A stretch of DNA of 64,000 nucleotides from a virus, in the IMG/VR virus record IMGVR_UViG_3300044697_000009, positions 21,262 through 85,261 of that record; one strand, given 5' to 3'. Both the position numbers and the translations under genes were made by a program. This document shows, in pieces, positions 4,934 through 59,393 of the stretch. Position 1 is the stretch's first letter. Each line of letters starts with the position of its first letter. The notes beneath the pieces were generated by a model, which saw only the letters and a list, made by a program, of their open reading frames with translations, did no database searches and was not told the DNA's origin.

Positions 4934-6517
4934 TTATACCCTGCGTCTCACGCCCATTTTATTGTAACGAAGTAAACTATGGCGAGCTGTGATTTTTTGT
5001 GGAGTTCCTTCTACACGATCATCAAGCAATGTACCTTGTTGTTGGTTCATTTCCTGAATCTTTTGTAAAGAATTCTGAAGACCTTGTTGATCGCCAAGAC
5101 TTGCGAGTATTCTTGCCGCTGCACGTTCTGCTAAAGAATTATGTAAATCAGGAGGAAGTTGTGGAATAATTGCTTCATTAGCAGGACAAATATAGTCTCC
5201 GACGCTTAATCCTATTCCGTTATAAGCATTTGGAACCGGAATATCTACTGCATTGAAATAAATCGTATTACCAGAAATCGAGACAATCGGAATATCCCAA
5301 TTAAAGATTCTATGTCCTGGATTAGTTTGTAGGAAATCGATAAGATTTCCATTTGCATAAACACCAGAAGGAATACTAACAAAGTCAATACCCTGAGTAC
5401 CAGTGACAATTCCATTTGTATTCAACGTTGGAATACTAAAAGCTTTTGAATTATTTGTAGTGAATGAATAACTAACATTAGAATACTGAATATGAGCTAC
5501 ATCAGTTGATGAATTCCCATTTGTAGCATTGTTGATAATTCCAGTAAGCGCATTTAATGCAATAACGAAATTACTAGTTGTAGTAACTGAACTACCAGAA
5601 TCAATCAAGAATTGATTAGGACTTGTAAAACTACCTGAAGACCCATTTCCTGTGATAGTAGCTGCGATTTGGAAATTGTCATTATCTACGATGTTAATTA
5701 CTTGATACGTTCCATCAATACTAGGGGTAGAATCACTTCCAGAGATTACAACAGTTTGTCCAAGAGTTAAATAATGATTATCGGCAGTGATTTGAACAGT
5801 ACCAGTTTGAGGTGAAGTAATACTTGTAATTGATACAGAAGAACTAGGAACTGCAGTTAAAGTCGCAATTGGAGTTGTATAGACTTCATAACTACCAGGT
5901 AAATAACTCTGATAAGGAGGGTTTCCAACGGCAGGGAGAACTGAAACCGTTTGGACAAGTTGGATATTAAATACATCACCTGGATTCATTACACTACTAT
6001 TTACTGTAATGTCTTGTGAAAAATACTGAATAATTGCAGCTTGGTCATTGGTAACGAGTTGATTCGGACGAATATAAAACGACATTACAAACTGACCAGT
6101 AGGATCAGCAGTAACAGCAGGTAAAAGAACGATATCATTACCTTCTACGTAATATTTATGAACCGCCTGATTAGCACCGATATTTCTTTGAAAGAAAGCT
6201 TTGTCATCAGGTGAGACACGAGTCATATCGAACATATTGCCGGCATTATCTTGCCATTTTATGTCACGAAGTCTCATACCAATTGCACGATTGGGAATTG
6301 GATAACGATTAATTCCAGTAGTTAAAGGTACGACTTCATACGTAACAAAGAATTCTTCATGATACGTCAATACACTTGGGACTTGAGAAATATACATTTC
6401 TTCGTTCACAAATGCGAGAATATCGTCATTGCTAAATGTGTTTTGACTTATCGGAAAAGCAATCTTACGTTGAATACTAGCGATAAGGTCATCACTCGTC
6501 AGCCACGGATTAGCCAT
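4934..6517 (-). CDS. Head-tail adaptor / tail tubular protein A-like with inserted domains
   Basis: Helical N- and C-terminal parts (DDILAFVNEE; IPQLPPDLHNSLAERAAARIL) flank a beta-rich insert. Lies directly upstream of the nozzle-like gene. Confidence 0.6.
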   Translation of the reverse strand: MANPWLTSDDLIASIQRKIAFPISQNTFSNDDILAFVNEEMYISQVPSVLTYHEEFFVTYEVVPLTTGINRYPIPNRAIGMRLRDIKWQDNAGNMFDMTRVSPDDKAFFQRNIGANQAVHKYYVEGNDIVLLPAVTADPTGQFVMSFYIRPNQLVTNDQAAIIQYFSQDITVNSSVMNPGDVFNIQLVQTVSVLPAVGNPPYQSYLPGSYEVYTTPIATLTAVPSSSVSITSITSPQTGTVQITADNHYLTLGQTVVISGSDSTPSIDGTYQVINIVDNDNFQIAATITGNGSSGSFTSPNQFLIDSGSSVTTTSNFVIALNALTGIINNATNGNSSTDVAHIQYSNVSYSFTTNNSKAFSIPTLNTNGIVTGTQGIDFVSIPSGVYANGNLIDFLQTNPGHRIFNWDIPIVSISGNTIYFNAVDIPVPNAYNGIGLSVGDYICPANEAIIPQLPPDLHNSLAERAAARILASLGDQQGLQNSLQKIQEMNQQQGTLLDDRVEGTPQKITARHSLLRYNKMGVRRRV

Positions 6518-10691: not shown

Positions 10692-11186
10692 TTAATCCGT
10701 AATCAAGAGTGATTTAGCTGTGTAACCAATCGTACCTGAATGATTAGATCCAGTAATACTGGTAGATGAGAATTGGACTTGACCCAAGTCTGTAATAGAG
10801 AATGTAACGTCTCCGTTGCCCGTATATTCCCTTGACATTTCCCATTTATTACCAGTAGGATTATTAGGATTGTATATAACTTCTAAAGTCCCAAACTCCG
10901 ATACTGTCGTAGCACCTGATCCAGTTGTAGATCTATAAACAGTGTATTGAACTGCTGCACCTTGTACTGCCGCAACCGGGAAGGCTAAAGCTGGTAAACT
11001 AACATTTGTATTAACATTAGCGACCATTGTATAGATTTGAGGAGGAATATCGTAAGGACCTGCAACTGATGCAAGAGCATCTGCCGTTAATTCAGCGAAC
11101 TGAGTAATAGCAGGCGCCCAGTTTGGGGAATCAGCAGATACGGGGAATTGTATAGGAGTTCCAGATATAGTAACAGTGATTGGCAT
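10692..11186 (-). CDS. Virion structural protein (hypothetical)
   Basis: Beta-rich ORF downstream of a late-promoter motif. ATG at 11186. Confidence 0.6.
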   Translation of the reverse strand: MPITVTISGTPIQFPVSADSPNWAPAITQFAELTADALASVAGPYDIPPQIYTMVANVNTNVSLPALAFPVAAVQGAAVQYTVYRSTTGSGATTVSEFGTLEVIYNPNNPTGNKWEMSREYTGNGDVTFSITDLGQVQFSSTSITGSNHSGTIGYTAKSLLITD

Positions 11187-11216
11187 CAATAACCTATAGT
11201 AGAAAAGAGATCTACT

Positions 11217-11229
11217 ATATAGTTATTAA
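11217..11229 (-). promoter_or_regulatory. Putative phage late promoter TTAATAACTATAT
   Basis: Recurrent intergenic motif upstream of structural genes. Confidence 0.65.
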
Positions 11230-11231
11230 CT

Positions 11232-12731
11232 TTATGATCTTTTAGGATAAGGAAAATTTGTCCAGGTTTTTTCTAGTTTCTCGTATTTATTTTTCTTTAA
11301 TAAAAGCACATACTTACCTTTTTTAGGTTTCTTTTTAATCGGTAAGTCCTTGTATTGTAGTCTTGCGTATTCATCAAGGAGTTGTTTCACCTCCAATGGC
11401 ATAGCCTTCCTGTTTTGAAACCCTCCTTCAGTATTCCATTCTGGAAGCCATTCTATACCTAGGTCTTTAGCATATTTTTTCATGCTAGATGTTCTTGTAA
11501 AATGCCGTTCAGTTACTTCTTTACCATCTTTAACATAGACCTGGGTTGATCCATAGTTTTTACCTAAGTAATCAAAATTACAAGCCTGGTATATAGTTCC
11601 TATTTCACCTGCATCAGGATCGCTATAAGCCGTAAATATACGTTTTTCTGTATTATTCACCATCCATCTACAACTAAACATAACTAGCCGTGAGCCTAAA
11701 TTCTTCGGAGTCCAGCTAGCGCAGGCTCCTCGTTGAATCAAGGCTTCTAATTTCTTATCGAATTGATAGCTATTAGGCTCAGCTATCATCACGACTCCGC
11801 CTAATAACCCGTTGTATCTAGCTGTAAACACGTATCTAACGCCAAATCCACAAGTCCCAAGCCATTCGTATCTTTCAATAAACTTTCTATGTTCATCCGT
11901 AATCTTTTCTTGAGCTAAAACGAATTCACTAGCTTTTACGTTTAAAGGCATTCCATTTTTGATGTCTTCTTTAAGTAGTTGATCTCTCTTAAGTTTTTGC
12001 CAACATACATTTTTTGGAAGACTATCTTTTTTAATATTTCTATTATAGTCGGAAAACTCAGGTTTTAAATTAGTGTAATGACATAATTCGTACATCTGTT
12101 GTTCGGTTCTAACTTTAGATAAAGGAATAACGTGATCTATATCCCATATTTCACCGTAGTTATCCCAAGTCATATTAGGTTGGAATTGAGACTCCAGATA
12201 CATTTTAAGTTCTTCTAGAGTACATCCTATGTATTCAGAAAAATGAGTGTCCTTTTTCCAAGACGTTCGTTTTAATGCGTAATATAACCTATTTCTGAGT
12301 CTTCGGCTTAATTTATAGAATAAATCATTTTTTTCTCGATCTTTTCTATAAGACCGTCTTTTTATTCTAATTATAGGCTTATTATCATGGTAATATTGTC
12401 TAGTTCTTTGTTTTATATTTTCTTTTTTAGATTCATAATATTTTTTAGTATTTATAGATCTGCATTCTTTACATTGTGTACATAATCCATCCGGATTGTT
12501 TTTATCTTTAGTAAAGTATTCGGCGGGTTTTTGAATGCCACAAGTTCTACAAATTTTTGAAGAAACTGATATAGAATTATTTTTTGGATTATTTAGACGA
12601 CGAATTCTTTTTTTCTTAGAACCGCAATTTCTGCAATATGTTCTATATCCGTCTTTAGTTAAACTATGTTTATTGAATTCACTTATATTATATTCTGTAT
12701 GACATAATGTACATGTTTTTCGATCAATCAT
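11232..12731 (-). CDS. Zn-finger/HNH endonuclease fused to a Mom-like (GNAT-fold) DNA modification domain
   Basis: Two CxxC...CxxC repeats; HNH-type WDIDHVIPLS...HYTNL; C-terminal AYSDPDAGEIGTIYQACNFDYLG resembles the Mom-family YAD-x5-GTIYQAxN motif. Confidence 0.7.
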   Translation of the reverse strand: MIDRKTCTLCHTEYNISEFNKHSLTKDGYRTYCRNCGSKKKRIRRLNNPKNNSISVSSKICRTCGIQKPAEYFTKDKNNPDGLCTQCKECRSINTKKYYESKKENIKQRTRQYYHDNKPIIRIKRRSYRKDREKNDLFYKLSRRLRNRLYYALKRTSWKKDTHFSEYIGCTLEELKMYLESQFQPNMTWDNYGEIWDIDHVIPLSKVRTEQQMYELCHYTNLKPEFSDYNRNIKKDSLPKNVCWQKLKRDQLLKEDIKNGMPLNVKASEFVLAQEKITDEHRKFIERYEWLGTCGFGVRYVFTARYNGLLGGVVMIAEPNSYQFDKKLEALIQRGACASWTPKNLGSRLVMFSCRWMVNNTEKRIFTAYSDPDAGEIGTIYQACNFDYLGKNYGSTQVYVKDGKEVTERHFTRTSSMKKYAKDLGIEWLPEWNTEGGFQNRKAMPLEVKQLLDEYARLQYKDLPIKKKPKKGKYVLLLKKNKYEKLEKTWTNFPYPKRS

Positions 12732-12737
12732 ACATAC

Positions 12738-12766
12738 ACTATATCACAAGTTATATAAAAAGTCAA
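12738..12766 (-). promoter_or_regulatory. Sigma70-type promoter for the HNH-Mom gene (probably leaderless)
   Basis: TTGACT-17 bp-TATAGT with TG extension; the ATG is 6 nt downstream of the -10 box. Confidence 0.75.
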
Positions 12767-12787
12767 GTGTTTTTTGCATGAATTATA

Positions 12788-12816
12788 TAAAAAAGAGGGG
12801 GCTGTTAACCCCCTCT
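12788..12816 (-). terminator. Rho-independent terminator after the major capsid gene
   Basis: AGAGGGGG-TTAACAG-CCCCCTCT followed by a T-run on the minus strand. Confidence 0.85.
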
Positions 12817-12829
12817 AGATACTGAGGAA

Positions 12830-14071
12830 TTAGGTATTTACGATGTTGTTGACCAATACGTTTCTACCTGGGGCCATGCAAAATATCGCCTGATCCGAGT
12901 AGAGACGGAGTTCATAGGCTGCAGAGTTTTCCAAATCGCGGAAAAACTCTTCACCTTGACCAGGTCGTTTAAACGTCATATCAGTTGAACCAACTCGGAA
13001 CCATTCTTCCATAGCAAGGATATAAGCATAACCTTGTTTAACGTAGATAGAAGGCTCGATTTCGATCTCACCGTTTTGTGAGAAGAAACGGAGAGCTTTC
13101 CCACCGTTTTGGAGTTGAACAGAAGAATACGATTCGTCGTATCTGCGGAGAGCAGCTTGGTCAGACAGAACGTTTGACCAGGTACGAGGATTCAAGAGAG
13201 CCAAGACGTTACCATCGAGACCTTTTTCAACTGCACGAGCAGTCGCATAGTTCAAGATGTTAAACGAAAGAGCGGAACTTGAAGCGGAATACGTATTACC
13301 TTTCCAGAGGTTAAACTGAGCCGCGTTGATATTAAACAACGTAGTTTGATTCGTAAGAATCATATGGATACCAGGAAATTCGTTACCATAAGCGCCAGCG
13401 TGCCAGATAACGTCGTTAGTCTGAACGCCAGTAGCGTTAGTTGACAATGTAACGGTTTGAGCCGTCATATCAACAGCGGAAACTGAGAAGTTCCCACGAG
13501 ATGTCGAACCGTTGCTGGAACGAATCTCAATCGGCATACCTTCAGCACCAGCCCAGATACCAGGAGCCCATTCAGACGTAGTGATTGTAAGAACAGCGCC
13601 AGACGTACTAGCGATGGTCGCGTAACCAACTTGTCCATAGAGCATCTCGATTTCGAGCTTTTTAGCCATAGAACGGAGCATGTTGGCAACGAGGAATTTC
13701 GTCGCATCCATGAACGCTTTTTGACCACCAAGGGCTGCACGAGAAGCAGCGGCATAACCGAGCAGTGAACGAAGCACTACAGGATTACCACGGACTTGAG
13801 CATCCTTGATTTGACCAGCGATAGGAGCATTCAAATTGAAAGCATCTTCATCACTAGCAGCAAAGGTGATACCATGTTCCAGACCCAAGATAACAGGTTG
13901 ATGGTAAAGGTTACCAGGCTGTTTATCTTTAGACAGGAACTTGATTTTATTCATGAGCTTAACTCCATCAGGAATCAGCTCGCCAAGTTTATCAGCGTAG
14001 GTTTCTTTGAAGAAACCGTTAAGGGTACCAACCGAGTTATTCGGGGTACCAAATGTATTTGCACTCGCCAT
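12830..14071 (-). CDS. Major capsid protein (HK97 fold)
   Basis: 413 aa, downstream of the scaffold, AAGGAG SD, strongly biased codons and a terminator after it. The N-terminal LNGFFKETY pattern is seen in P22-like capsids. Confidence 0.85.
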   Translation of the reverse strand: MASANTFGTPNNSVGTLNGFFKETYADKLGELIPDGVKLMNKIKFLSKDKQPGNLYHQPVILGLEHGITFAASDEDAFNLNAPIAGQIKDAQVRGNPVVLRSLLGYAAASRAALGGQKAFMDATKFLVANMLRSMAKKLEIEMLYGQVGYATIASTSGAVLTITTSEWAPGIWAGAEGMPIEIRSSNGSTSRGNFSVSAVDMTAQTVTLSTNATGVQTNDVIWHAGAYGNEFPGIHMILTNQTTLFNINAAQFNLWKGNTYSASSSALSFNILNYATARAVEKGLDGNVLALLNPRTWSNVLSDQAALRRYDESYSSVQLQNGGKALRFFSQNGEIEIEPSIYVKQGYAYILAMEEWFRVGSTDMTFKRPGQGEEFFRDLENSAAYELRLYSDQAIFCMAPGRNVLVNNIVNT

Positions 14072-15982: not shown

Positions 15983-16003
15983 ATATAATAATTCCTGTCT
16001 GTA

Positions 16004-16016
16004 ATATAGTTATTAA
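16004..16016 (-). promoter_or_regulatory. Putative late promoter TTAATAACTATAT
   Basis: Exact motif copy upstream of the 15982/scaffold unit. Confidence 0.65.
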
Positions 16017-27594: not shown

Positions 27595-27710
27595 TTTATC
27601 CTCCAAGTTATTGAAATTATTAAAGAGTTTTGCGTAAACCGCTCTTTTGTCCGGGTCAAAGCCCGTGTATTGCCCTAACTGGGCCTCCGGTATTGCTAAA
27701 TCTCTCTAAG

Positions 27711-27756
27711 ATATAGTTATTAAATTCTTAGATAATCCCCGTTTTAATAACTATTT
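27711..27756. promoter_or_regulatory. Divergent pair of late-promoter motifs
   Basis: Minus copy at 27711-27723 faces the packaging operon. Plus copy TTAATAACTATTT at 27744-27756 faces the lysis genes. Confidence 0.65.
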
Positions 27757-27759
27757 AGT

Positions 27760-31035: not shown

Positions 31036-31551
31036 TTATTTTTTTAGTAATGTTGTAGTTAATTCATTTGTTGCATATACAGGACGTATAGGAGTTAATG
31101 AATTTATGTATTTACAAAAGGATTCGGCATCATGTATATTATCGAAGTACCCGATAGTACTAGACTTATTCTGAGAATTGACTATATCAACACGTACTAA
31201 AGTCTTTGTTTTAGGATCTATTACAATACGAGTCTTGTATTTAACAGGTGGGACTTGGTTATAGAGTTTATAGCCTTGAGATTTGTATAAGTCATAATAA
31301 TAGGATTGACGTATACGTAAGTCTTCAGGACTACAGAATTCAAGGATATAGAGTTTTAAGTTACTATAGTATTTATTTAATGATTTGTTACTATGGATAC
31401 CTTGTTTCATATCCGAGATATGCTTAGACACACTAATTAGTATATTGTTACTATAACTAATATATAGACTTTTAGTACGATGATGTACGAAGGCATAAAC
31501 ACCAGATTGGGATAATTCTTTCATGTTACTATAATTAGATACAAGGACCAT
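31036..31551 (-). CDS. GIY-YIG-like endonuclease
   Basis: SGVYAF-x8-YISYS, HSNKSL and YN motifs (variant). Confidence 0.6.
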   Translation of the reverse strand: MVLVSNYSNMKELSQSGVYAFVHHRTKSLYISYSNNILISVSKHISDMKQGIHSNKSLNKYYSNLKLYILEFCSPEDLRIRQSYYYDLYKSQGYKLYNQVPPVKYKTRIVIDPKTKTLVRVDIVNSQNKSSTIGYFDNIHDAESFCKYINSLTPIRPVYATNELTTTLLKK

Positions 31552-31556
31552 ACAAT

Positions 31557-31569
31557 ATATAGTTATTAA
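31557..31569 (-). promoter_or_regulatory. Putative late promoter TTAATAACTATAT
   Basis: Exact copy 5 nt upstream of the GIY-YIG ATG. Confidence 0.6.
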
Positions 31570-33884: not shown

Positions 33885-33957
33885 AGTCCCGTAGCTCAAT
33901 GGTTAGAGCAGGCTCTTTATAAGGGTCAGGTTGCTGGTTCGAGTCCAGCCGGGACTA
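33885..33957 (+). tRNA. tRNA-Ile (anticodon UAU), CCA not encoded
   Basis: Acceptor AGTCCCG/CGGGACT, D arm GCTC-AATGGTTA-GAGC, anticodon arm GGCTC-TTTATAA-GGGTC, T arm GCTGG-TTCGAGT-CCAGC. Confidence 0.9.
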
Positions 33958-52359: not shown

Positions 52360-52584
52360 ATGGAAACTGAAGAAAGAAAACTTGAGAAAAAAGAGATAGT
52401 AACACTAATGCTTAAGAAAGTCGAAGAAATAGTCCATGCAGGTATTGATTCAACTGATACAGAAGGATATAGTCCATTAGATCTTATTGTATTGACAATT
52501 AACCATGTTATGATCCTGGCTGAGACACAACGTAAAGCCGAAGCTGAATTTGATTCAGATGATGATTCAGGAACCTTACAATGA
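52360..52584 (+). CDS. Acidic hypothetical protein
   Basis: AGGAG SD. Confidence 0.6.
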   Translation: METEERKLEKKEIVTLMLKKVEEIVHAGIDSTDTEGYSPLDLIVLTINHVMILAETQRKAEAEFDSDDDSGTLQ

Positions 52585-52829
52585 ACTTACGACATAAATT
52601 CATTAGACATAATAGGAATATGGACATATGTTATTTAGTTAACAAAGTATTTGATACAGGAAAGAAGCTTAAACTAAGTCTCATCGCATTTAATATGGGG
52701 TATACAGAAACATATCGCTTGAACATACAGTTCAAAGCTGTTATATTCAAAGAAGAATTAAAGAACTGGCAACTATGCCTAGATAGTAATGCTAAATGCT
52801 TAAGATATTCTGAATGGAAACAAATATGA
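52581..52829 (+). CDS. Hypothetical protein
   Basis: ATGA-coupled ORF. Confidence 0.55.
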   Translation: MNLRHKFIRHNRNMDICYLVNKVFDTGKKLKLSLIAFNMGYTETYRLNIQFKAVIFKEELKNWQLCLDSNAKCLRYSEWKQI

Positions 52830-53074: not shown

Positions 53075-53357
53075 GAAACTAAAACTCAAAGAGATCCTGT
53101 ATTGTATATACTGCGGAAAGAAGTCAGCATTCAAAGTCTGTAACGAATGTTATTTAATCGAATTATAAGGAGAATATATGGAAATCCTGCAACTCAATAC
53201 CCCAATTAAAGTCTTGATTAAAGATAAAGAACCTGCCGAGGCTATTGCTATCTGGGATTACGGTCGTGACGAAGACATTCAATTCCTTTGTTTCAAAGAA
53301 AAAGATGGACAAAGTATATTTGTTAACGGAACTGATATACGTCGAAGAAAATAATAC

Positions 53358-53386
53358 TTGACTTTTTATGAAAAATGTGATATAGT
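53358..53386 (+). promoter_or_regulatory. Sigma70-type promoter
   Basis: TTGACT-17-TATAGT with TG extension, near-identical to the promoters at 12738 and 59365. Confidence 0.8.
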
Positions 53387-54270: not shown

Positions 54271-54350
54271 GAGGCTGTAGTTTAATGGTAAAACAATCAG
54301 GCGGAGAGTAATCCCTGAATAAGTTCTACGTTCGAGTCGTAGCGGCCTCA
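54271..54350 (+). tRNA. tRNA-like element with an aberrant extended anticodon arm (identity undetermined)
   Basis: Acceptor GAGGCTG/CGGCCTC, D arm GTTT-AATGGTA-AAAC and T arm CTACG-TTCGAGT-CGTAG are canonical. The anticodon arm TCAGG-12 nt-CCTGA is not. Confidence 0.65.
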
Positions 54351-59359: not shown

Positions 59360-59364
59360 TTTAC

Positions 59365-59393
59365 TTGACTTTTTGCTTAAATTGTGGTATAGT
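59365..59393 (+). promoter_or_regulatory. Sigma70-type promoter for the replication/recombination genes
   Basis: TTGACT-17-TATAGT with TG extension. Confidence 0.8.

What the first reader, a model, noticed from the sequence alone, without database searches (positions are those of the whole stretch)
11232..12816. HNH nuclease fused to a Mom-like DNA-modifying domain, as a self-contained unit in the structural operon
Seen: one 499-aa ORF has two Cys4 fingers, an HNH-type nuclease and a C-terminal domain with AYSDPDAGEIGTIYQACNFDYLG. It lies after the capsid terminator, has its own sigma70 promoter (probably leaderless) and is AT-rich. A late-promoter motif 2 nt after its stop restarts structural transcription. 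Established: Mu Mom is a GNAT-fold enzyme that hypermodifies adenine and protects against restriction. Inference: this may be a one-polypeptide cut-and-protect element (nuclease attacks unmodified DNA, Mom marks self), or a homing endonuclease that mobilises an anti-restriction gene.
Basis: partly seen in the sequence, partly recalled or inferred. Interest (0 to 1): 0.75.

Follow-up and report, generated by a model that had tools for sequence, protein, structure and literature searches.

The report
Mobile HNH nuclease–Mom DNA-modifier cassette
A phage gene placed just after the capsid gene joins a homing-type DNA-cutting module to a relative of phage Mu's Mom enzyme, which masks adenines in DNA, and it lies in a slot that related phages leave empty or fill with other mobile nuclease genes.

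Summary
Window 11232-12731 (minus strand) is a 499-aa ORF with three parts: two Cys4 zinc ribbons, an HNH-type core, and a C-terminal Mom-family GNAT. The Mom assignment rests on Pfam PF25680 (44.6 bits, cut-off 27.1) and on the best fold match, Mu Mom 8bv8.

The fusion is a real family. 88 of 119 listed non-self database clusters cover at least 81% of it.

The gene is a self-contained cassette of terminator, sigma70-like promoter ending 6 nt before the ATG, and ORF. It sits between the capsid gene and a conserved late-promoter motif.

In relatives this gap is a homing-endonuclease hotspot. It is empty, or holds HNH alone, GIY-YIG alone, HNH-Mom, Mom-GIY-YIG, or a Vsr-like nuclease with a Mom-like domain.

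Two filled/empty pairs (99.8% and 98.4% identical upstream flanks) differ by an HNH-only cassette, and substitutions cluster at the capsid gene's 3' end.

My best reading is a mobile homing-type nuclease coupled to a DNA adenine-acylating, anti-restriction domain. No activity was tested.

Nuclease-Mom fusions (REase type) were already predicted for jumbo phages, so this is a new variant of a known kind. This scan reached the same reading earlier on another genome (e1-3448434).

The parts
12830..14071 (-). Major capsid protein gene (413 aa), upstream neighbour. Its 3' end is the likely homing target region in relatives.
   Evidence: PHROG 14242 major head protein, E 4.5e-15. In L135 against L107, 6 of the 15 mismatches in 7,998 nt lie in the last 49 nt of the capsid gene, and the last 40 residues of the protein are identical.
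12794..12816 (-). Intrinsic-terminator-like hairpin plus T run, after the capsid gene and at the upstream edge of the cassette
   Evidence: Every filled or empty allele inspected has a hairpin here. RNA-library contigs of two runs stop at 12844-12847, which is only a weak hint.
12738..12766 (-). Sigma70-type promoter TTGACT-17-(TG)TATAGT. The -10 hexamer ends 6 nt before the ATG, so the mRNA is probably leaderless.
   Evidence: The same layout with exactly 6 nt occurs in 16 of 32 hotspot cassettes, against 7 of 2,320 ATGs in the window. Three further copies of a near-identical 31-nt promoter lie elsewhere in the genome, with 2-5 mismatches.
11232..12731 (-). 499-aa ORF: HNH nuclease module fused to a Mom-family GNAT
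   Evidence: AF2 model: pLDDT 94.6, pTM 0.78.
12471..12731 (-). aa 1-87: two Cys4 zinc ribbons (Hpy99I/Stc1-like)
   Evidence: Invariant cysteines. VIA-align to Hpy99I 3fc3: Z 6.0, rmsd 1.7 A over 41 residues, model aa 1-42. Foldseek to 3fc3: E 2.9e-3. Profile against Hpy99I: E 0.013.
12252..12470 (-). aa 88-160: four-helix K/R/Y-rich spacer
   Evidence: Helices 88-101, 103-116, 118-135 and 137-154 in both models.
12018..12251 (-). aa 161-238: beta-beta-alpha-Me (HNH) core with D199, H200, N221, N230
   Evidence: Conserved motif. PHROG 1035. Weak fold matches over model aa 135-238: Gme HNH 4h9d Z 4.2, GVE2 HNH 5h0o Z 3.5, Cap5 Z 3.3. BFVD hits named 'HNHc domain containing' and 'Intron encoded endonuclease'.
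11235..12017 (-). aa 239-499: Mom-family GNAT domain, with a long insertion between beta6 and beta7
   Evidence: Pfam PF25680. PHROG 1384. Foldseek top hit 8bv8 Mu Mom: E 2.7e-9, TM 0.61-0.65 by target. hhalign to Mu Mom: 91.8%. Residue mapping.
11216..11229 (-). Late-promoter-like motif TTAATAACTATATA, 2 nt after the stop and upstream of the next structural gene
   Evidence: 5 matches in the window against 0.89 expected. A TTTAACAACTA-type motif lies before the p165 homologue in empty-site relatives and before some cassette ORFs.
10692..11189 (-). Next structural gene (165 aa, no family match). It marks the downstream edge of the hotspot.
   Evidence: Homologues found after the capsid gene in 46 of 55 IMG/VR loci, at variable distance.

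Best explanation
The ORF is the payload of a roughly 1.6-kb portable cassette made of a terminator, its own host-type promoter abutting the start codon, and one gene. The cassette occupies the gap between the major capsid gene and the late promoter of the next structural gene in an 85-kb phage with direct terminal repeats.

The protein has two modules that also exist separately:
- The N-terminal module (two zinc ribbons, a helical spacer, and an HNH core with D199-H200...N221...N230) belongs to a large family of free-standing phage HNH genes. At this very site these behave like intronless homing endonucleases. I infer that it cuts cassette-free relatives near the 3' end of the capsid gene during co-infection, so that repair copies the cassette in.
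- The C-terminal module is a divergent Mom-family GNAT that keeps the equivalents of Mu Mom R111, S124, D149 and Y159. I infer that it acylates N6 of adenine in duplex DNA after replication. By analogy with Mu the donor would be an aminoacyl-tRNA, though the donor may differ. The modification would shield phage DNA from restriction, and possibly from its own nuclease.

Shown: the domain identities, the fusion family, the hotspot, gain or loss of HNH-only cassettes between the paired relatives, and the conserved promoter layout.

Inferred: both enzymatic activities, the target site, and any functional coupling between the two modules.
For: Domains:
- Pfam Mom scores above its cut-off.
- The fold search ranks Mu Mom 8bv8 first, at E 2.7e-9, with generic GNATs from 5.7e-5.
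- Alignment A5 maps Mu R111, S124, D149 and Y159 to R334, S347, D371 and Y381. S347, D371 and Y381 are invariant and R334 is at least 90% conserved in the 30 fusions. Those Mu residues matter for activity (Silva 2026, section 13).
- HNH motif and PHROG 1035.

Family:
- 88 of 119 listed clusters are full-length fusions.
- The same HNH module is also fused to canonical Mom in P0131, P0142 and P0186, at 121-135 bits.

Hotspot: 46 of 55 IMG/VR capsid loci could be classified.
- 12 are empty.
- 6 hold HNH alone.
- 10 hold GIY-YIG.
- 3 hold HNH-Mom.
- 2 hold Mom::GIY-YIG.
- 8 hold DUF7487/REase-like plus a Mom-like domain.
- 3 hold an unknown ORF and 2 something else.

Mobility:
- The capsid tree needs 22 changes of occupant.
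- L135 and L107 have flanks 99.8% and 99.5% identical, with a 695-nt HNH cassette in place of 69 nt, starting 3 nt after the capsid stop.
- In that pair 6 of the 15 upstream mismatches fall in the last 49 nt of the capsid gene, where the protein does not change.
- L095 and L170 give a second pair, with mismatches clustered on both flanks.
- L158 carries a truncated 117-aa HNH remnant.

Promoter.

Different histories of the two halves:
- P0004 is 76% identical in the Mom half but 48% in the HNH core; P0002 is 76% and 70%.
- GC is 28.2% in the HNH half against 36.2% in the Mom half.
Against: - No filled/empty pair was found for the HNH-Mom cassette itself. The closest capsid relative is only 80% identical, so homing is shown only for HNH-only relatives.
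- No Pfam HNH model matches, and the structural matches to HNH cores are weak, at Z 2.9-4.2.
- Mu Mom H58-Y59 are replaced by an invariant E289-W290, and R151 by D373. R151 also varies among canonical Moms. The chemistry may therefore differ, or be lost.
- The occupant labels cluster on the capsid tree (0 of 200 shuffles as low as 22 changes), so much of the pattern is vertical inheritance.
- Simple hitch-hiking does not explain why Mom-like domains are fused, rather than merely adjacent, to three or more nuclease classes.
- RNA evidence for the ORF is one 166-nt contig in one RNA library, and contigs cannot prove transcription.
Confidence: 0.6

Rival explanations
1. One-polypeptide cut-and-protect weapon, like a restriction-modification system. 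The HNH module cuts unmodified DNA of the host or of competing phages with relaxed specificity. The fused Mom module marks the carrier's own DNA, so self and non-self are told apart by adenine acylation rather than by sequence.
For: Mom-like domains are fused to several nuclease classes:
- HNH with two different Mom subfamilies.
- GIY-YIG in the opposite domain order, in L097. L185 has a canonical Mom plus a region 37% identical to those GIY-YIG proteins by tblastn, but no Pfam GIY-YIG hit at E<=1.
- DUF7487/REase_MTES_1575-like.
- Atlas clusters that carry TnsA-like domains.

Iyer et al. 2021 predicted exactly this role for REase-Mom fusions of jumbo phages (passage read). The promoter is of the host sigma70 type and matches three other promoters of this genome, so the protein could act from early in infection.
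Against: The same HNH family occurs without Mom at the same site (6 of 46 loci) and widely elsewhere. The Mom-like domain also occurs alone (Vibrio phage 501E54-1). In the HNH-only carrier L135, substitutions cluster next to the cassette while the capsid protein is unchanged, which points to site-specific cutting rather than relaxed cutting.
Confidence: 0.2
2. In these fusions the Mom-like domain is mainly a DNA-binding, base-flipping recognition module recruited by homing endonucleases. It would not be a genome-wide modifier.
For: BFVD matches of the C-terminal half include proteins named 'homing endonuclease' in Campylobacter phages CP21 and F336 and in Pseudomonas phage PA5oct. H58-Y59 of Mu Mom are not kept. 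The domain is joined to many nuclease types.
Against: The equivalents of R111, S124, D149 and Y159 are invariant or nearly so across the 30 fusions. Stand-alone members exist, one of them beside thymidylate synthase and Dam methylase genes in a cultured Vibrio phage.
Confidence: 0.1
3. The HNH module is a packaging-associated or otherwise essential, non-mobile nuclease, or an inactive relic. On this reading only Mom matters.
For: Members of the same PHROG lie next to terminase genes in some cultured phages: Aeromonas 4_D05 is annotated beside the small terminase and Paracoccus KLEP18-1 has it at the genome start.
Against: Near-identical phages exist with and without the HNH gene, so it is dispensable. 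The catalytic motif is invariant in fusions and in solo forms. The gene lies after the capsid gene, not by a terminase gene.
Confidence: 0.05

Closest known systems
Phage Mu Mom (PDB 8bv8; Pfam PF25680), the Gly-tRNA(Gly)-dependent N6-adenine modifier of duplex DNA
   Same: GNAT fold, and the best fold match. Pfam score is above the cut-off. Equivalents of R111, S124, D149 and Y159 are kept, and there is an insertion between the last strands of the fold.
   Different: Only about 17% identity. The Pfam match covers profile positions 80-160 of 202 only. H58-Y59 become E-W, and R151 becomes D. The insertion is longer (aa 394-464). The protein is fused to a nuclease. It is driven by a sigma70-type promoter inside the late operon, not by the Com-controlled late expression recalled for Mu. 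Donor and product are unknown.
Mom-REase fusions of jumbo phages (Iyer, Anantharaman, Krishnan, Burroughs, Aravind 2021, Viruses; passage read)
   Same: A Mom domain and an endoDNase in one polypeptide. The authors propose a protect-self, attack-others logic.
   Different: Their nuclease has the restriction-endonuclease fold. Here it is an HNH with zinc ribbons, in an 85-kb phage, within a demonstrably polymorphic homing hotspot. The REase-like form also occurs at this hotspot in relatives.
Free-standing homing endonuclease genes of phages, such as the T4 Seg and Mob genes (recalled, not from a call)
   Same: An intergenic cassette beside a conserved gene, with presence/absence polymorphism, clustered flank substitutions, low GC, GIY-YIG and HNH alternatives at one site, and decayed copies.
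   Different: This one carries a second, enzymatic domain in the same reading frame. Cleavage has not been shown.
Hpy99I, a beta-beta-alpha-Me type II restriction endonuclease (PDB 3fc3)
   Same: The zinc-ribbon region is similar in sequence and structure.
   Different: The similarity is confined to about 45 residues of the zinc ribbon. The catalytic cores did not align convincingly.
Single-chain type IIG/IIL restriction-modification enzymes (recalled)
   Same: A nuclease and a DNA modifier in one polypeptide.
   Different: Those use a PD-(D/E)xK nuclease, a SAM methyltransferase and a shared target-recognition domain. Nothing here shows a shared specificity.

Membership tests
Mom family (PF25680) of the GNAT superfamily | Profile score above Pfam's gathering cut-off | tested here: met
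   44.6 bits against 27.1, E 1.8e-11, but only profile positions 80-160 of 202. 47.8 bits in the six-frame search of the genome.
Mom family (PF25680) of the GNAT superfamily | GNAT fold closest to Mu Mom | tested here: met
   Foldseek ranks 8bv8_A and 8bv8_B first (E 2.7e-9 and 9.8e-9; TM by target 0.61 and 0.65), ahead of generic GNATs. BFVD: Mom of Salmonella phage FSL SP-031, TM by target 0.79.
Mom family (PF25680) of the GNAT superfamily | Residues needed for Mu Mom activity: R111, S124, D149, Y159 | tested here: met
   They align to R334, S347, D371 and Y381. These are invariant or at least 90% conserved in 30 fusions.
Mom family (PF25680) of the GNAT superfamily | H58-Y59 and R151 of Mu Mom | tested here: not met
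   They align to E289-W290 and D373. R151 also varies in canonical Mom-domain proteins in the same alignment. HY is kept in the canonical ones but not in this subfamily.
Mom family (PF25680) of the GNAT superfamily | Aminoacyl-tRNA-dependent modification of N6-adenine in duplex DNA | not testable with these tools
   Needs biochemistry. It is known only for Mu Mom and two mined homologues (Silva 2026; abstract and sections 13 and 38 read).
HNH / beta-beta-alpha-Me nucleases | Catalytic His at the end of strand 1, followed by Asn and Asn/His on strand 2 and the helix | tested here: met
   D199-H200 lie at the end of strand 196-200, N221 before strand 222-226, and N230 in helix 227-234.
HNH / beta-beta-alpha-Me nucleases | Match to a curated HNH profile or to a solved HNH core | tested here: inconclusive
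   No Pfam HNH family at E<=1. PHROG 1035 'endonuclease VII' at E 2.6e-20 over aa 58-232. VIA-align Z 4.2, 3.5 and 3.3 to the Gme, GVE2 and Cap5 HNH domains. No significant match to a solved HNH core by sequence profile.
Free-standing homing endonuclease gene | Presence/absence at one site in otherwise near-identical genomes | tested here: inconclusive
   Met for HNH-only relatives: L135 against L107/L108, and L095 against L170/L171. No such pair was found for the HNH-Mom fusion.
Free-standing homing endonuclease gene | Sequence changes clustered next to the insertion (target immunity or co-conversion) | tested here: inconclusive
   In the L135/L107 pair, 6 of 15 mismatches lie in the last 49 of 7,998 nt, with no protein change. 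In the L095/L170 pair, mismatches cluster on both flanks. This was seen in relatives only.
Free-standing homing endonuclease gene | Site-specific cleavage of the cassette-free allele | not testable with these tools
   Needs an in vitro cleavage assay.
Restriction-modification-like single polypeptide | Nuclease and modifier obligately linked, with the nuclease blocked by the modification | tested here: not met
   Linkage is not obligate, since both modules occur alone. Sensitivity to the modification cannot be tested here.

The most novel reading that the evidence does not exclude
The fusion is a mobile 'homing restriction-modification' unit. The Mom-like domain would acylate adenines, possibly from a charged tRNA, within or around the nuclease's own recognition sequence. 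A carrier genome would then be immune by chemistry rather than by sequence change. That would let homing nucleases of several unrelated folds (HNH, GIY-YIG, Vsr-like) invade conserved genes such as the capsid gene without first needing protective synonymous mutations. It would also explain why Mom-like domains have been fused to them repeatedly.
Probability: 0.22. Interest if true: 0.85.

Novelty: new variant of a known kind. Interest (0 to 1): 0.62.

Why it matters
Mom is the only known enzyme that uses a charged tRNA to modify DNA, and only Mu Mom and two homologues have been tested.

Here a large, uncharacterised branch of that family is joined again and again to homing-type nucleases, in a portable cassette that carries its own promoter.

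If the two activities are coupled, this would be a new way for selfish nucleases to gain self-immunity and for anti-restriction genes to spread between phages.

It would also supply natural pairs of a DNA modifier and a nuclease that may read the modification.

The capsid-gene hotspot gives a set of filled and empty alleles on which homing can be tested directly.

Tried and rejected
- Megablast of 5 kb around the gene against 50,697 phage records gave no match.
- tblastn against the same records found 113 records, of which 0 cover at least 80% of the protein. No cultured phage in that collection has this fusion.
- NCBIfam gave no family.
- A pattern search of IMG/VR with the single protein gave one distant locus.
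- The sequence profile of the fusions against PDB gave only marginal hits: Mom E 0.02 and Hpy99I E 0.073.
- The HNH-module profile against PDB gave only the zinc-ribbon match to Hpy99I at E 0.013.
- Foldseek with the N-terminal model gave no match at E<=0.001.
- hhalign of the DUF7487-type hotspot proteins against the fusion family was weak, at 36.8%. Their Mom-like C-terminus rests on the Atlas look-up and one weak Pfam hit.
- The tree of HNH modules (75 rows) needs 19 label changes, but only 16 of 72 inner branches are well supported. The supported ones do not exclude a single origin of the fusion, so I make no claim about the number of origins from it.
- Other capsid-locus pairs (L095/L128, L111/L083, L111/L084, L106/L125, L119/L123, L137/L115) are only 77-88% identical or give no match, and could not serve as filled/empty pairs.
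- No group I intron family was found in the split capsid genes.
- DNA contigs of runs X1 and X2 hold the stretch whole with no variant joint that skips the cassette. These runs may be the source of this DNA. Parts of the ORF not covered in the RNA libraries are no evidence either way.
- Packaging-HNH and assembly-artefact readings were rejected for the reasons given under rivals and because of the size of the family.

Literature: four full-text searches found no paper describing an HNH-Mom or homing-endonuclease-Mom fusion. A paper by Iyer et al. 2009 (PMC2995806) is not held, and Iyer et al. 2013 was not looked up; either may bear on this. Supplementary files were not opened. The supplements of Silva et al. 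2026 (a similarity network of more than 8,000 Mom homologues with Pfam annotation) may already list such fusions.
Full report
**What is there**

The window is bases 21262-85261 of an 85,261-base virus record with direct terminal repeats.

On the minus strand, a 499-aa ORF (11232-12731) follows the 413-aa major capsid gene (12830-14071; PHROG 14242, E 4.5e-15). It precedes a 165-aa gene (10692-11189) and a 693-aa baseplate- or fibre-like gene.

Between the capsid stop and the ORF lie two elements:
- a 10-pair hairpin with a T run (12816-12794);
- a TTGACT-17-TATAGT pair, preceded by TG, whose -10 hexamer ends 6 nt before the ATG.

Two bases after the ORF's stop comes TTAATAACTATATA. The degenerate form of this motif occurs 5 times in the window against 0.89 expected.

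The ORF is 32.3% GC against 36.9% for the window. The HNH half is 28.2% and the Mom half 36.2%.

**The C-terminal half**

- Pfam PF25680 (Mom) matches aa 341-422 at 44.6 bits (cut-off 27.1). PHROG 1384 'Mom-like DNA modification protein' matches aa 280-498.
- An AlphaFold2 model built on 60 sequences has pLDDT 94.6.
- Its best PDB match by Foldseek is the crystal structure of Mu Mom, 8bv8 (E 2.7e-9, TM by target 0.61-0.65). Ordinary GNAT acetyltransferases follow from E 5.7e-5.
- hhalign of the family against Mu Mom gives 91.8% probability over 52 columns.

Silva et al. 2026 (abstract and sections 13 and 38 read) report that Mom transfers glycine from Gly-tRNA(Gly) to N6 of adenine in duplex DNA. 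They report R111, S124 and R151 as essential, confirm an earlier report that D149A greatly reduces activity, and find that H58A, Y59A, Y159A, W48A and W181A drastically reduce it.

In a 17-sequence alignment that includes Mu Mom:
- R111, S124, D149 and Y159 fall on R334, S347, D371 and Y381, all invariant or nearly so in 30 fusion proteins;
- H58-Y59 fall on an invariant E289-W290;
- R151 falls on D373. R151 also varies among canonical Mom-domain proteins in that alignment.

The domain is therefore a divergent but probably active Mom relative. Its donor and product cannot be read from sequence.

**The N-terminal half**

- Two CxxC...CxxC ribbons (aa 4-36 and 58-90) are followed by four helices (aa 88-154) and a strand-strand-helix unit carrying D199-H200, N221 and N230.
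- PHROG 1035 ('endonuclease VII') matches aa 58-232 at E 2.6e-20.
- No Pfam HNH model matches at E<=1.
- A separate model of aa 1-240 (pLDDT 89.3) matches the zinc-ribbon part of the beta-beta-alpha-Me enzyme Hpy99I (VIA-align Z 6.0, rmsd 1.7 A over 41 residues; Foldseek E 2.9e-3).
- For aa 135-238 it matches the Gme, GVE2 and Cap5 HNH domains only weakly, at Z 4.2, 3.5 and 3.3.
- BFVD matches of this half carry names such as 'HNHc domain containing protein' and 'Intron encoded endonuclease'.

I take the HNH assignment as probable rather than proven.

**The fusion is a family**

- In the 5.8-billion-protein collection, 746 proteins match at E<=0.001. Of the 119 listed non-self clusters, 88 cover at least 81% of the query at 37-72% identity.
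- The exhaustive profile-free search found 253 representatives at E<=1e-30. They include stand-alone HNH modules (about 180-240 aa), stand-alone Mom-like proteins (about 270-300 aa), and Mom-like domains at the end of 400-890-aa proteins.
- P0131, P0142 and P0186 join the same HNH module to a canonical Mom domain (121-135 bits). P0083, P0132 and P0134 join DUF7487, with or without REase_MTES_1575, to Mom.
- Within the fusion family the halves disagree. P0004 is 76% identical to the window's protein in the Mom half but 48% in the HNH core, where P0002 is 76% and 70%. Together with the GC difference, this suggests exchange of modules.
- A tree of HNH modules is too weakly supported to count origins.
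- None of 113 matching records of cultured phages covers at least 80% of the protein.

**The site is a hotspot**

I fetched 55 IMG/VR loci around capsid homologues of 53-79% identity and located the next conserved gene in 46 of them. The gap between the two genes holds the following:

| Occupant | Loci |
|---|---|
| Nothing (88-181 nt: hairpin plus a TTTAACAACTA-type motif) | 12 |
| HNH gene alone | 6 |
| GIY-YIG/NUMOD homing-endonuclease genes, two types | 10 |
| HNH-Mom fusion (L083, L131, L137) | 3 |
| 448-aa Mom::GIY-YIG fusion with the domains in the opposite order (L097/L098) | 2 |
| 456-479-aa DUF7487 plus weak REase_MTES_1575 proteins | 8 |
| Unknown ORF of about 280 aa | 3 |
| Something else | 2 |

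- Several of these loci are identical or near-identical copies of one another: L087=L088, L114=L136, L117=L126=L130, L123=L124, L107=L108, L097~L098 and L118~L120. Five (L087, L088, L098, L120, L136) were classed by matching coordinates rather than by a family search.
- The C-terminus of the DUF7487 proteins is Mom/GNAT-like by the Atlas look-up: TM 0.90-0.93 to clusters in which up to 88% of members carry PF25680. By profile comparison the link is weak, at 36.8%.
- On a capsid tree of 56 rows (47 labelled) the occupant changes at least 22 times, where 8 is the minimum possible. The labels are still more clustered than shuffled ones (mean 31.5; 0 of 200 as low).
- A scan of metagenome contigs (80 loci, 18 flagged as copies of the first set) added more HNH-only cassettes (L146, L148, L149, L159, L176, L190, L192, L217) and more empty sites.
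- It also added a partial HNH-Mom (L183) and a 495-aa protein (L185). L185 has a full canonical Mom domain (132.6 bits) followed by a region 37% identical to the hotspot's GIY-YIG proteins by tblastn, but with no Pfam GIY-YIG hit at E<=1.
- L158, the closest relative by capsid identity (80%), carries a truncated 117-aa HNH remnant.

**Evidence of movement**

- L135 and L107/L108 are 99.8% identical over 7,998 nt upstream and 99.5% over 202 nt downstream. L135 has a 695-nt stretch (hairpin plus HNH gene) where L107 has 69 nt, starting 3 nt after the capsid stop codon.
- In that pair, 6 of the 15 upstream mismatches lie in the last 49 nt of the capsid gene, at 49, 46, 43, 40, 25 and 16 nt from the junction. 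The C-terminal 40 residues of the two capsid proteins are identical.
- L095 (HNH) and L170/L171 (empty) are 98.4% and 95.7% identical in the flanks. 23 of 83 upstream mismatches fall within about 100 nt of the junction, and most of the 55 downstream mismatches fall in the first roughly 160 nt.

These are the marks expected of intronless homing: target-site immunity or co-conversion. They concern HNH-only cassettes. No comparably close pair exists for the fusion in the data I could reach.

**Expression signals**

- Of 32 first ORFs of hotspot cassettes, the window's included, 16 have a TTGA..-16 to 18-.A...T pair whose -10 hexamer ends exactly 6 nt before the start codon. These cover HNH, HNH-Mom, GIY-YIG, Mom::GIY-YIG and DUF7487 types.
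- The same test, with 4-9 nt allowed, is met by 7 of 2,320 ATGs in the window. Only this one starts an ORF longer than 76 aa.
- Four of the cassettes without that layout, and one with it (L092), carry the late motif upstream instead.
- The window's promoter is one of four near-identical 31-nt copies in the genome (2-5 mismatches). At least two of the other three drive genes with AGGAG-type ribosome sites. The cassette therefore uses this phage's own host-type promoter class, unlike the late expression recalled for Mu mom.
- In two RNA libraries, contigs cover the capsid gene and stop at 12844-12847. One 166-nt contig lies inside the ORF (12265-12400). Contigs cannot prove transcription.

**Reading**

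The best-supported account is a mobile homing-type HNH gene that carries, in frame, a Mom-family DNA modifier.

Both modules work as independent genes elsewhere, so neither needs the other. Yet Mom-like domains have been joined to HNH (twice, with different Mom subfamilies), to GIY-YIG, and to Vsr/REase-like nucleases. That calls for a functional reason.

The candidates are:
- stabilisation of a selfish nuclease gene by a useful domain;
- mobility for the modifier;
- self-immunity of the carrier by modification.

The last is the boldest reading not excluded.

**Prior work**

- Iyer et al. 2021 (passage read) described Mom-REase fusions in jumbo phages and predicted a protect-and-attack role.
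- I found no description of HNH-Mom or homing-endonuclease-Mom fusions in four full-text searches. Supplements, and two older papers by the same group, could not be checked.
- Earlier notes of this scan reached the same reading on another genome (e1-3448434). They also record Mom genes coupled to a LAGLIDADG gene and to an overlapping Zn/HNH gene elsewhere. I did not test those two.

Noticed in passing
L104:7025-8069; also L107, L108, L113, L135, L110, L116, L117, L121: In many relatives the capsid gene is split. Residues 1-57 and 58-413 are separated by about 805 nt, which is not a multiple of 3. In L104 the insert holds a 187-aa ORF that looks like a GIY-YIG endonuclease by eye; no family search was run on it. 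L110 and L121 have two interruptions. No Rfam intron family matched. The window's own capsid gene is uninterrupted.
   Followed up: partly
G000 6126-6156 (outside the window); window 53356-53386, 59363-59393 and 12738-12768: There are four copies of a near-identical 31-nt sigma70-type promoter (ACTTGACTTTTT...TGTGATATAGT), with 2-5 mismatches between them. Three are on the plus strand. At least two of those precede genes with AGGAG-type ribosome sites.
   Followed up: partly
window 11216-11229, 16003-16016, 27710-27723, 27744-27757, 31556-31569: The late-promoter-like motif TTAATAACTATAT recurs 5 times against 0.89 expected. Four copies are on the minus strand.
   Followed up: partly
window about 31270-31506 (G000 52531-52767), minus strand: A 182-aa open frame gives a weak GIY-YIG match (E 0.0019, 15.2 bits, below the cut-off). 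It lies close to one of the late motifs and may be another endonuclease gene.
   Followed up: no
window 33885-33957 and 54271-54350: A tRNA-Ile (anticodon TAT) was found by both tools. A second Rfam tRNA match (47.1 bits) at 54271-54350 was not called by ARAGORN.
   Followed up: no
L158:5346-5699: The closest capsid relative (80% identity) has only a 117-aa remnant of the HNH module (zinc ribbon and spacer, no core) after the capsid gene. Opposite-strand genes follow it. It looks like a decayed or rearranged cassette.
   Followed up: partly
BFVD matches to the full model: Proteins named 'homing endonuclease' in Campylobacter phages CP21 (399 aa) and F336 (182 aa, TM by target 0.72) and in Pseudomonas phage PA5oct (498 aa) match the model. 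From the F336 protein's size and its TM scores I infer the match is to the Mom-like half; the output gives no aligned ranges. Some annotated phage homing endonucleases may therefore contain an unrecognised Mom-like GNAT domain.
   Followed up: no
L099:9371-10258, L101, L102, L122:3934-4797, L180, L187: A 276-295-aa protein family with no Pfam match recurs in the same capsid-downstream slot, followed by a small conserved ORF of about 85 aa.
   Followed up: no
L222 (Vibrio phage 501E54-1, OX241455.1 111306-112178): The closest Mom-half relative in a cultured phage (42.9% identity) is a stand-alone 290-aa hypothetical protein. It lies near thymidylate synthase and Dam methylase genes.
   Followed up: partly
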